Positions 53,876-55,834 of a DNA stretch of 64,000 nt are shown piece by piece. Made by a program: the position numbers. This stretch comes from Octopus vulgaris (taxonomy: Eukaryota): NCBI GenBank assembly GCA_951406725.2, contig OX597833.1, forward strand, positions 71,424,001 through 71,488,000. The letters run 5' to 3'. How positions within the stretch are numbered: the stretch's first letter is position 1; every line of letters begins with the position of its first letter.

Positions 53876-55834
53876 TTTTCTTCAGTTCTAAGTCATTCAA
53901 GTCTTGGATTCTCGTTGTCCTGGGTGCACTCCATGAATTCCTATCTGTTTGGTAGACATCAGCAAATAAATGCTTTGCTGATTATGTGTATTGTGGTGGT
54001 GCGATGTGGTGTGTTACACGGTGATCGCCATGGAAAGCAGGACTTGGCAAGAATTATTGTTTTTGCTGTTGTTTAACCCTAGGTTGGTTGTGATTGAGTA
54101 GACCACCGCTGAAATGTAATCTTGTCACGACACTCTTGTCATTTATTCAAACTAAGTGTATCTAAGACTACATTATCTAATGTGTCTACCTTTTATTTTT
54201 AGCGACAGAGAAGTGGTTCCCACATCTTTTCTTCTTTGTTTCTTGTGGCTCATTTTGGAGTAAATAAAATAGTTCAAGGGAAACTGTAAAGAAGTTCGTC
54301 AGATGGATTGCATCTTTTATTTTCTATCTTTTACTTGTTTCGGTCATTAGACTGCGGCCATGCTGGGGCATTGCCTTGAAGGATTTTTTTCACTGAACGA
54401 ATCAACCCCCAGGACTTATTTTCTTTTTAAGCCTAGTGTTTATTCCATTGGACTCTTTAACCAAACTGCTAAGTTTCAGGGATGTAAACACACCAGCACT
54501 TGTTGTCAAGCAGATTTTTTGAGGACAAAGCAAGCAAAATAATAAACTGGAATCCACAGCTGTATTTTAAGTATCCCTGAAAAACATTTTGTTTTTGGTG
54601 TAATTATTGCAACAAACAGCTTTCTTTCTTTCTCTAATGTTTTACATCGTTTGAGGCTTTCTGCGATTGAAACACGTTCTCTCAGTGAGTTCCATTGCAA
54701 ACCTGCACAAGTGAATGGGTGATGCAGAAAATAGGAATTCTGAAAGCAGTGTCTATGAAACTAGTTTTCAAACATCGAAAGACTAGATGGGGGCTTCCAT
54801 CAGAGTGAAATAGCAATCAAAGGGGTCTAACAGATAAAAAAAAAATGGTTGAGAATCACTGTGGTACAGAATGTGGGATGTACAGGGTATGGTACAGCAA
54901 GGTGTTATACTATGTAAAGTAGACAATGTGTATGGTTTCAACATTAAGATGTTGTTGCTTAATCCCACATCATGTTTGAGTGGATCAAAGGAATTCCAGT
55001 CATGACCACCTTGTCTTTTTAAGTGTATATCTAGGACTACATCATGCAAAATGTGATTTCTTTTCCTTTCTCACAACAGCGTAACTTGAGGAAGATTTGA
55101 CTGCTATTTCTATCTGGTACAACCTGCACATCTCTCCTGATCTCATTACACATATTGTGTCCTCTCTCATCCTTCTATCCATTCCAGTAACCATTCTGCC
55201 TATTTCTTCCGTTCGTTGACTCGTAGTTATTTAAGACAATCTTTAACCGCATCATTAGTTTGATTTGGAGGAAGGGGTCGTGGCCGGAGCCTCGCAAGGC
55301 TGTGACTCCTTCCTCCGGGTCAAATTAATGAGAAAAACAAACACAGATACAAAACAAACCGCAAAAAAAAATGGAAAGAGGAGGAGGGTGAGTGATGGCG
55401 AATCTATGACACACTTATCAGCAGTGTCACTCACCGCAGGGTTGAGGTGACACGTGGCACATTGAAAGATAAAAGGGAAAAAATAAAACAAATATAATGT
55501 AATGTCATTTTATGAAAGGTTTATCCAGAAACATTTGTTTAAAATCGAAATACATGTATGTATGTAACGCTTCAGTAACAGGAGGATACATACATACAAA
55601 TATACATACATACATACATACATACATGCATGCATGCATACATACATGCATACATATATATACATACATACATACATACATACATACATACATACAGGCA
55701 TACATACATACATACATACATACATACATACATAAACACACATACATACATACATACATACATACATACATACATACATACATACATACATACATACATA
55801 CAAATATACATACATACATACATACATACATACA

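What the first reader, a model, noticed from the sequence alone, without database searches (positions are those of the whole stretch)
55252..55331. Fully paired 80-nt hairpin whose every imperfection is G-U: candidate cephalopod microRNA or other structured RNA
Seen: arm 55252-55285 pairs with arm 55298-55331 at all 34 positions (26 Watson-Crick, 8 G-U) around a 12-nt loop, in sequence that is unique within this window. A decaying DNA palindrome should give G-U and A-C about equally plus some transversions. Getting 8 of 8 G-U on one strand has roughly a 1 in 128 chance even counting transitions only. Known: a ~33-35 bp stem with a loop of at least 10 nt is the Drosha substrate geometry, and coleoid cephalopods have many lineage-specific miRNA families. 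Inference: a + strand RNA hairpin under selection, with 5p near 55263-55285 and 3p near 55299-55321. An alternative is a retro-inserted fossil of an A-to-I edited hairpin.
Basis: partly seen in the sequence, partly recalled or inferred. Interest (0 to 1): 0.8.

Follow-up and report, generated by a model that had tools for sequence, protein, structure and literature searches.

The report
Retro-inserted RNA hairpin, wobble-only imperfections
An 80-base hairpin whose only flaws are G-U wobbles sits with an A-rich tail between two copies of a 7-base repeat, so it is most likely a DNA copy of a folded, perhaps edited, RNA pasted into the genome rather than a demonstrated microRNA gene.

Summary
Arms 55252-55285 and 55298-55331 pair at 34 of 34 positions (26 Watson-Crick, 8 G-U) around a 12-nt loop. 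The + strand folds far better than the - strand (-53.3 against -36.1 kcal/mol). No second copy exists in the window.

The wobble-only pattern is not what this window's mutation regime gives. Repeat copies show 65% transitions and no strand bias. That puts 8 of 8 pair-keeping changes at about 2.5e-4. The two other complex palindromes decay with mixed mismatches.

New here: the 7-mer AACCGCA abuts the stem's 5' base (55245-55251) and recurs at 55357-55363. A 25-nt tail with 17 A lies between the stem and the second copy. The left copy follows CTTT. This is the signature of target-primed retro-insertion of a stem-loop plus A-rich tail. The sense strand of that unit is the strand that carries the G-U pairs.

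I therefore read the G-U pattern as written while the sequence was RNA, most simply by A-to-I hyper-editing of a perfect inverted repeat. The microRNA reading remains untested by expression or orthologues. It has no family match and 0 of 3 processing motifs.

The parts
55245..55251 (+). Left copy of the 7-nt direct repeat AACCGCA (putative target-site duplication). It abuts the first paired base of the stem and is preceded by CTTT.
   Evidence: The longest suffix of the left flank that recurs in the next 100 nt is 7 nt. Shuffles of the right flank reach this in 195 of 20,000 cases.
55252..55285 (+). 5' arm of the hairpin (34 nt)
   Evidence: 34 of 34 positions paired.
55286..55297 (+). 12-nt terminal loop. 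RNAfold adds 2 weak pairs inside it.
55298..55331 (+). 3' arm of the hairpin (34 nt)
55332..55356 (+). A-rich tail, 17 A in 25 nt, between the 3' base of the stem and the second repeat copy
   Evidence: only 280 of 63,975 25-mers (0.44%) on the + strand have at least 17 A.
55357..55363 (+). Right copy of the 7-nt direct repeat AACCGCA
55364..55372 (+). Run of 9 A directly after the right repeat copy. I read it as part of the original A-rich target site, not of the insert.
   Evidence: sequence. The assignment is an inference.

Best explanation
Bases 55252-55356 (105 nt: an 80-nt stem-loop plus a 25-nt A-rich tail) are a DNA copy of an RNA. A non-LTR retrotransposon's target-primed reverse transcription inserted it at a ...CTTT|AACCGCA-A9... 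site, which duplicated AACCGCA.

The eight G-U pairs were already in the RNA. That is why they all fall on the sense strand and why nothing else in the stem is broken.

There are two RNA-stage causes. I favour ADAR A-to-I hyper-editing of a perfectly paired inverted-repeat transcript, because inosine is copied as G and A-U becomes G-U. I put that at about 0.3 of the 0.5 given here. Long-term structural selection in the source RNA takes about 0.2.

The copy itself is probably a young, inert fossil.

Shown: the pairing, the strand asymmetry, the direct repeat, the tail, and the absence of strand-biased mutation in the window. Inferred: the retro-insertion, the RNA-stage origin of the wobbles, and ADAR.
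For: 1. Pairing. 34 of 34 pairs with 8 G-U, and a + strand much more stable than the - strand.

2. Neutral decay is unlikely.
- 15 SINE-like pieces give 283 substitutions, of which 184 are transitions.
- The + strand spectrum is symmetric: A>G 35 / T>C 34 and C>T 57 / G>A 58.
- A random change therefore keeps + strand pairing with probability 0.325. Eight of eight on either strand comes to 2.5e-4.
- The two other complex palindromes show 2 G-U against 10 other mismatches (Fisher p = 7e-4).

3. Insertion signature.
- The 7-mer abutting the stem base recurs 25 nt beyond the stem. This happens in 195 of 20,000 shuffles and at 0.8-1.2% of complex-sequence control positions.
- The 25 nt in between hold 17 A, a level reached by 0.44% of 25-mers.
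- Both together occur at 3 of 34,974 control positions on each strand. The + strand count was not checked for whether it includes the finding.
- The left copy follows CTTT, a TT|AA-type nick site.
- Passages of PMC10830416 give TTTTT/AA as the human L1 target. They also show that ORF2p engages a template made of a stem-loop followed by a single-stranded A tract.

4. Strand agreement. The tail's sense strand and the G-U strand are the same.

5. Age. With no pair-breaking change in 68 stem nt, neutral divergence since the stem was last clean is below about 6.5% at P = 0.05. The SINE-like copies are 70-93% identical to one another. Wobbles that arose after insertion should have come with about twice as many breaks.

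6. ADAR.
- All 8 wobbles can be written as A>G on the sense strand, and 13 A remain in the stem.
- A G 5' neighbour occurs at 1 of 8 putative edited sites against 5 of 13 kept A. That is the direction expected from the ADAR preference described in PMC8586724 (passages).
- The same review cites A-to-G hyper-editing fixed through reverse transcription in avian retroviruses.
- PMC9699675 (passages) reports that octopus editing falls mostly in hairpins of introns and 3'UTRs.
Against: - The repeat is only 7 nt, with p about 0.01 on its own. I chose the thresholds of the joint test after seeing the locus.
- The tail is not pure poly(A). It has 17 A in 25 nt.
- The L1 rules come from the human enzyme.
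- The window's abundant SINE-like family ends in an AGTAAA-like short repeat, not an A tract. The window therefore offers no second example of A-tail retroposition.
- No parent copy, sister copy or empty site is available.
- The insert starts exactly at the base of the stem, which a randomly 5'-truncated cDNA would rarely do.
- The ADAR neighbour test is not significant (p = 0.34).
- The 8 wobbles fit C>U on the sense strand equally well, and 4 of the 8 T are followed by G.
- Three consecutive U-G pairs and a G-U/U-G/G-U triplet are compatible with editing but prove nothing.
Confidence: 0.5

Rival explanations
1. Same retro-insertion, but the source RNA was a naturally evolved stem-loop. Candidates are the 3' stem-loop of a LINE or SINE that its reverse transcriptase recognises, or another structured RNA such as a pri-miRNA of a parent gene. 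The G-U pairs would then reflect selection for pairing in the active source lineage. This is nested inside the 0.5 given to the best explanation and is its less favoured half.
For: - The direct repeat, A-rich tail and nick site are as.
- 3' stem-loops next to the tail are described for stringent-type LINEs and for L1, Alu and processed pseudogenes. I saw only the search listings and abstract starts for these (PMC4176376, PMC5135761, PMC6510757).
- A stem-loop plus A tract is the template ORF2p engages (PMC10830416, passages).
- Reverse-transcriptase fragments lie in the window: RVT_1 at 28919-30000 and 38444-39435.
Against: - A long-evolved 34-bp stem would be expected to carry some bulge or mismatch. 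Here there are 0 in 34.
- 8 G-U in 34 pairs, including two runs of three, is an unusually wobble-rich helix.
- No similarity to any other sequence in the window, including the LINE and SINE 3' regions.
- The SINE-like family here uses a different tail.
Confidence: 0.2
2. The locus is itself a functional hairpin RNA gene on the + strand, either a young lineage-specific microRNA or another Drosha/Dicer substrate. Selection keeps every pair, and the flanking repeat and tail are coincidental or merely record how the gene arose.
For: - The geometry fits: a 34-bp stem, a 12-nt loop and unpaired flanks.
- The strand asymmetry favours RNA-level pairing.
- Octopus has 90 novel miRNA families, and the authors call their count an underestimate (PMC9699675, passages).
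- Palindromic repeats are a documented source of miRNAs, as with Made1 and hsa-mir-548 (PMC1784062, passages).
Against: - No Rfam family at gathering score in the whole window (0 matches). The best sub-threshold hit on the hairpin is mir-326 at 25.8 bits against 66, E 0.045 for a 2.6-kb search.
- 0 of 3 motifs at the expected sites: basal UG, apical UGU/GUG and downstream CNNC (the positions are recalled from the literature). These motifs are not obligatory.
- The hairpin is far more stable than I recall typical animal pre-miRNAs to be: -0.67 kcal/mol per nt, MFEI 1.27.
- Low prior: 164 genes per octopus genome.
- The joint repeat-plus-tail signature is rare by chance.
- An 11-base U/T-free stretch of the stem together with 'octopus' matched 0 papers. 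That is a weak test, since sequences usually sit in supplements, which were closed.
Confidence: 0.15
3. An ordinary DNA palindrome whose eight transitions fell in the pair-keeping direction by chance. It could be a MITE-like foldback element or a product of template switching.
For: - This genome makes such palindromes. Two others lie in the same 64 kb: 53252-53486 with 106-nt arms and 62883-63011 with 57-nt arms.
- The geometry resembles Made1: 80 bp, two 37-bp inverted repeats and 6 bp between them (PMC1784062).
- The finding was picked because it pairs fully, so there is selection bias. A gigabase genome would contain a few such outliers.
Against: - P is about 2.5e-4 under the window's own spectrum.
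- It contrasts with the other palindromes (p = 7e-4).
- There is no duplication flanking the two arm ends directly, and no TA or TTAA there.
- The repeat that exists encloses the A-rich tail as well.
- No other copy in the window.
Confidence: 0.12
4. Strand-biased mutation in place. For example, deamination of the non-template strand of a transcribed region could have turned a perfect palindrome into a G-U-only one.
For: - All 8 wobbles can be written as C>T on the + strand, and 4 of the 8 T precede G.
Against: - The window's repeat copies show no strand bias at all: C>T 57 against G>A 58, and A>G 35 against T>C 34.
- GC and AT skew at 54001-56000 are -0.004 and 0.020.
- A bias strong enough for 8 to 0 is not known to me.
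Confidence: 0.04

Closest known systems
Alu-like minimal L1 template (stem-loop followed by a single-stranded A tract) and L1-type target-primed insertions
   Same: A stable stem-loop lies directly upstream of an A-rich 3' tail. The unit is bracketed by a short direct repeat. The nick site is of TT|AA type (PMC10830416 passages).
   Different: - The unit is only 105 nt.
- It has no tRNA/7SL-like head or internal promoter.
- The tail is impure (17 A in 25 nt).
- The enzyme rules are from human L1, and the mobilising element in this genome is unknown.
- Copy number is unknown.
ADAR hyper-editing fixed into DNA through reverse transcription (A-to-G hypermutated avian retroviruses cited in PMC8586724)
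   Same: Clustered changes that can all be written A>G on the sense strand of a double-stranded RNA region, preserved as DNA.
   Different: - There is no unedited parent to compare with.
- C>U fits equally well.
- The neighbour preference shows only a non-significant trend (1 of 8 against 5 of 13).
- The vehicle here would be a non-LTR retro-insertion, not a retrovirus.
Made1 MITEs / hsa-mir-548 (palindromic transposon hairpins that became microRNAs)
   Same: An 80-nt near-palindrome: two arms of 34 nt (Made1: 37 bp) around a short spacer of 12 nt (Made1: 6 bp). It forms a very stable hairpin when transcribed (PMC1784062).
   Different: - No duplication sits directly at the arm ends.
- There is no second copy in the window.
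- The mismatches are one-directional, which transposase-constrained DNA repeats do not predict.
Lineage-specific cephalopod microRNAs (PMC9699675)
   Same: The stem and loop dimensions suit Drosha and Dicer.
   Different: - No reads, no orthologue and no family match are available.
- The stem is fully paired, without the mismatches I recall as usual in animal precursors.
- The published precursor sequences sit in supplements or MirGeneDB, which I could not see.

Membership tests
Canonical animal microRNA gene | Hairpin with a stem of about 35 bp, a terminal loop of at least about 10 nt and single-stranded flanks | tested here: met
   34-bp stem, 12-nt loop and unpaired flanks in the 121-nt fold.
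Canonical animal microRNA gene | Small-RNA reads from both arms forming a duplex with 2-nt 3' overhangs and homogeneous 5' ends | not testable with these tools
   No read data. The ruler-predicted arms would be 55265-55286 and 55299-55320.
Canonical animal microRNA gene | Membership of a described family (Rfam), or conservation in a second species as required in PMC9699675 | tested here: not met
   Rfam finds 0 matches at gathering score in the window. The best hit on the hairpin is mir-326 at 25.8 bits against 66. Cephalopod-specific families and orthologues could not be compared, because supplements were closed and no eukaryote genome collection was on hand.
Canonical animal microRNA gene | Pri-miRNA sequence motifs (basal UG, apical UGU/GUG, downstream CNNC). 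These are helpful, not obligatory. | tested here: not met
   0 of 3 at the expected positions. The only CNNC in 55332-55372 starts at 55359. The motif positions are recalled, not taken from a call.
Non-LTR (target-primed) retro-insertion | Target-site duplication bracketing the insert | tested here: met
   AACCGCA lies at 55245-55251 and 55357-55363. Shuffles reach this in 195 of 20,000 cases, and 0.8-1.2% of complex-sequence control positions do. It is short, so moderately strong only.
Non-LTR (target-primed) retro-insertion | A-rich 3' tail ending at the downstream duplication copy | tested here: met
   17 A in 25 nt (0.44% of 25-mers). Jointly with the repeat, 3 of 34,974 control positions per strand.
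Non-LTR (target-primed) retro-insertion | Endonuclease nick site of TTTTT/AA type at the upstream edge of the duplication | tested here: met
   CTTT|AACCGCA. The consensus is taken from PMC10830416 passages. It is a partial match and comes from a human enzyme.
Non-LTR (target-primed) retro-insertion | An empty site in a relative, or a parent or sister copies elsewhere | not testable with these tools
   There are none in the window. No collection of the source genome or its relatives was available.
ADAR hyper-editing footprint | All differences from a perfect duplex are A>G on one strand | tested here: inconclusive
   8 of 8 fit A>G on the + strand, but 8 of 8 also fit C>U. There is no parent copy.
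ADAR hyper-editing footprint | Depletion of G as the 5' neighbour of edited sites | tested here: inconclusive
   1 of 8 putative edited sites against 5 of 13 retained A (Fisher p = 0.34). The preference is as described in PMC8586724.
MITE / palindromic DNA transposon (Made1-like) | Terminal inverted repeats flanked directly on both sides by a target-site duplication | tested here: not met
   The arms exist. The flanks at the arm ends are ...CGCA and GAAA..., with no shared duplication. The right repeat copy lies 25 nt beyond the arm.
MITE / palindromic DNA transposon (Made1-like) | Many dispersed copies | tested here: inconclusive
   0 further copies in 64 kb. This excludes only very high copy numbers. 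The genome was not searchable.

The most novel reading that the evidence does not exclude
This is a germline fossil of RNA editing written back into DNA. A perfectly paired inverted-repeat transcript was hyper-edited by ADAR. It was then picked up by a LINE reverse transcriptase, because a stem-loop next to an A-rich tract is the preferred template. It was finally pasted into the genome. Such an event would hard-wire eight A-to-I events as G and create a ready-made, wobble-softened hairpin that could seed a new small-RNA gene. In an animal group known for massive editing, this would be a direct route from edited RNA to heritable sequence.
Probability: 0.25. Interest if true: 0.6.

Novelty: new member of a known kind. 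Interest (0 to 1): 0.3.

Why it matters
If the reading is right, the locus is ordinary in kind: one more retro-copied RNA. It is instructive in two ways.

First, a 'selected-looking' G-U-only hairpin can be produced in one step by RNA-stage processes. Such hairpins are therefore not in themselves evidence for a microRNA gene.

Second, if the wobbles are ADAR edits, the locus is a small but concrete example of edited RNA sequence re-entering a germline. A single genome search for the unedited parent would make that question testable.

Tried and rejected
- Rfam, permissive mode, on 54000-56600. The strong-looking hits (mir-297 at 73.4 bits, mir-3149, mir-466, mir-1277 and others) all fall in the CATA/TGTA microsatellite at 55550-55980 and are below their gathering scores. 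I treat them as low-complexity artefacts.
- Rfam at gathering score on the whole window: 0 matches. ARAGORN: 0 tRNAs.
- Copies of the hairpin in the window: none by blastn or nhmmer.
- Coding reading: none of the six frames is open across the 80 nt. The nearest ORF, 54783-55070 on the - strand, has no Pfam match.
- A second hairpin at 55370-55480 is not significant (z -1.82; 10 of 200 shuffles fold as well).
- In the 301-nt fold, a CT-rich stretch near 55158-55186 pairs with a GA-rich stretch near 55373-55399 around the hairpin. I take this as polypyrimidine/polypurine chance pairing and did not pursue it.
- My first inverted-repeat scan missed the 53308 palindrome, so I replaced its counts with direct counts.
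- I tried to learn the genome's usual tail and duplication from the SINE-like copies. My first element boundaries were too short. The true 3' end is an AGTAAA-like repeat, so it says nothing about A-tail insertions. No duplications were established.
- ADAR neighbour test: not significant.
- Literature search for an 11-base stretch of the stem plus 'octopus': 0 papers.
- Searches for ADAR footprints in retrocopies returned reviews and virus papers. No report of this kind of locus appeared among the 12 papers listed per search. That is not proof of absence.
- A snap-back (self-primed cDNA) origin of the palindrome was considered and set aside. It would give a perfect palindrome and leave the wobble asymmetry unexplained.

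Full report
**1. The observation**

The sequence at 55252-55331 is as described. A direct count gives 34 of 34 positions paired between 55252-55285 and 55298-55331. Of these, 26 are Watson-Crick and 8 are G-U. There is no A-C, no transversion mismatch and no bulge. The loop is 12 nt, and pairing stops at A55251/G55332.

RNAfold of 55230-55350 gives -53.3 kcal/mol on the + strand (z -8.27; 0 of 200 shuffles fold as well). The - strand gives -36.1 kcal/mol (z -3.27; 1 of 200). With DNA parameters the two strands give -23.6 and -17.7.

A window-wide count found 3,692 uninterrupted stems of at least 20 pairs with loops of at most 40 nt, on either strand. Only 3 lie in complex sequence; the rest are microsatellites. 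This hairpin is one of the 3. Five block-shuffled windows gave none.

blastn and nhmmer find no other copy in the window. None of the six frames is open across the hairpin.

**2. Is 'every imperfection is G-U' more than chance?**

I used the window's own repeats as a mutation meter. Fifteen pieces of a tRNA-like SINE family differ from their consensus at 283 positions, with 184 transitions and 99 transversions.

Read on the window's + strand, the spectrum is symmetric: A>G 35 against T>C 34, and C>T 57 against G>A 58. A random change in a stem therefore keeps + strand pairing with probability 0.325. Eight of eight has probability 1.2e-4, or 2.5e-4 for either strand.

The two other complex palindromes decay as neutral DNA should.
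- 53252-53486 has 106-nt arms with 102 Watson-Crick pairs, 2 A-C, 1 G-U and 1 transversion.
- 62883-63011 has 57-nt arms with 49 Watson-Crick pairs, 4 transversions, 3 A-C and 1 G-U.

Pooled, these give 2 G-U against 10 other mismatches, compared with 8 against 0 here (Fisher p = 7e-4).

These tests are post hoc, and a large genome has many palindromes. Chance is therefore made unlikely, not excluded.

**3. The surroundings**

The 7 bases that abut the 5' base of the stem (AACCGCA, 55245-55251) recur at 55357-55363, 25 nt beyond the 3' base of the stem.
- A suffix match of at least 7 nt occurs in 195 of 20,000 shuffles of the right flank.
- It occurs at 0.8-1.2% of control positions in complex sequence.

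The 25 nt between the stem and the second copy contain 17 A. Only 280 of 63,975 25-mers (0.44%) on the + strand reach that.

The two features together occur at 3 of 34,974 control positions on each strand. I set those thresholds after seeing the locus, and I did not check whether the + strand count includes the finding.

The left copy is preceded by CTTT, and the right copy is followed by nine A. The inferred empty site ...CTTT|AACCGCA-A9... has a TT|AA-type nick site.

Passages of PMC10830416 give TTTTT/AA as the human L1 target consensus. They also show that L1 ORF2p binds a template consisting of a stem-loop followed by a single-stranded A tract. The unit 55252-55356 has exactly that architecture.

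**4. Reading**

I take 55252-55356 to be a target-primed retro-insertion of an RNA, for three reasons.
- The sense strand defined by the tail is the strand on which all wobbles pair.
- There is no pair-breaking change in 68 stem nt. That limits neutral divergence since the stem was last clean to below about 6.5% at P = 0.05. The SINE-like copies are 70-93% identical to the query copy.
- Eight wobbles acquired after insertion would be expected to come with about sixteen breaks, and none is seen.

So the wobbles were most likely present in the RNA.

**5. Which RNA-stage cause?**

A stem with no bulge or mismatch, whose only departures from a perfect palindrome are of one chemical class, looks more like a perfect inverted repeat hit by a one-directional process than like an old, selected helix.

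All 8 wobbles can be written as A>G on the sense strand, and 13 A remain in the stem. G is the 5' neighbour at 1 of 8 putative edited sites against 5 of 13 retained A (p = 0.34). That is the direction of the ADAR preference described in PMC8586724 (passages), but it is not significant.

The same review cites A-to-G hyper-editing fixed through reverse transcription in avian retroviruses. PMC9699675 (passages) reports that editing in octopus falls mostly in hairpins of introns and 3'UTRs.

Against the ADAR reading, C>U fits equally well, and 4 of the 8 T precede G.

The alternative is a stem-loop from a mobile element or another structured RNA that carries evolved G-U pairs. It remains open. For the literature on 3' stem-loops of LINEs, SINEs and processed pseudogenes I saw only search listings and abstract starts (PMC4176376, PMC5135761, PMC6510757).

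**6. The microRNA reading**

The geometry fits. The other tests I could run do not support it.
- Rfam finds nothing at gathering score in the window. The hairpin's best permissive hit is mir-326 at 25.8 bits against a threshold of 66.
- None of basal UG, apical UGU/GUG or downstream CNNC sits at the ruler-predicted places (positions recalled, and the motifs are not obligatory).
- The hairpin is more stable than I recall typical precursors to be: -0.67 kcal/mol per nt, MFEI 1.27.
- The prior is low: 164 genes in an octopus genome.

Expression, orthologues and the cephalopod-specific families could not be examined. No eukaryote genome collection was on hand, and the supplements and MirGeneDB lists were not visible. 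This reading is therefore untested rather than refuted. A retro-copied hairpin could also still be, or become, a small-RNA gene, as Made1 elements did for hsa-mir-548 (PMC1784062, passages).

**7. The MITE reading**

The 80-nt, two-arm geometry resembles Made1. Several things argue against it.
- There is no duplication directly at the arm ends.
- The repeat that exists also encloses the A-rich tail.
- No second copy lies in the window.
- DNA-level inverted repeats do not predict one-directional mismatches.

**8. What stayed unchecked**

- The organism was not verified. The window is microsatellite-rich, with reverse-transcriptase fragments, a PIF1-like helicase and a tRNA-like SINE.
- Genomic copy number, a parent locus, an empty site, small-RNA reads and editing levels could not be examined.
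- The closed protein searches and contig collections were not needed for this question.

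Noticed in passing
window 53252-53486: A large, nearly perfect inverted repeat in complex sequence. The arms are 106 nt with 102 Watson-Crick pairs, 2 A-C, 1 G-U and 1 transversion, around a 23-nt spacer. It looks like a young foldback or MITE-like element, or an inverted duplication.
   Followed up: partly
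window 62883-63011: A second complex palindrome. The arms are 57 nt with 49 Watson-Crick pairs, 4 transversions, 3 A-C and 1 G-U, around a 15-nt spacer. Both strands fold strongly, at -78 and -89 kcal/mol.
   Followed up: partly
window, e.g. 15903-16205, 34979-35313, 43811-44125, 50783-51100, 56392-56663, 58163-58469, 61525-61868: A tRNA-like SINE family with about 15 pieces in 64 kb, in both orientations. It has an internal TA/TG microsatellite. Its 3' region runs about 90 nt beyond my first boundaries and ends in an AGTAAA-like short repeat. ARAGORN calls no tRNA.
   Followed up: partly
window 28919-30000 (-) and 38444-39435 (-): Reverse-transcriptase (RVT_1) fragments of two non-LTR-like elements. 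The sequence just 3' of the second (37666-37850) resembles the 3' part of the SINE-like family at 69.7% identity, which suggests a LINE-SINE shared tail.
   Followed up: no
window 20368-21798 (-): PIF1-like helicase ORF pieces (PF05970 and PF21530), as carried by Helitron-type elements. They are interrupted by frame breaks.
   Followed up: no
window 55550-55980: A CATA/TGTA microsatellite gives sub-threshold Rfam hits to mir-297 (73.4 bits against 90), mir-3149, mir-466, mir-1277 and others. This is an example of low-complexity sequence mimicking microRNA models.
   Followed up: yes
window 55158-55186 with 55373-55399: In a 301-nt fold, a CT-rich stretch upstream pairs with a GA-rich stretch downstream, enclosing the hairpin unit. 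This is probably chance polypyrimidine/polypurine pairing.
   Followed up: no
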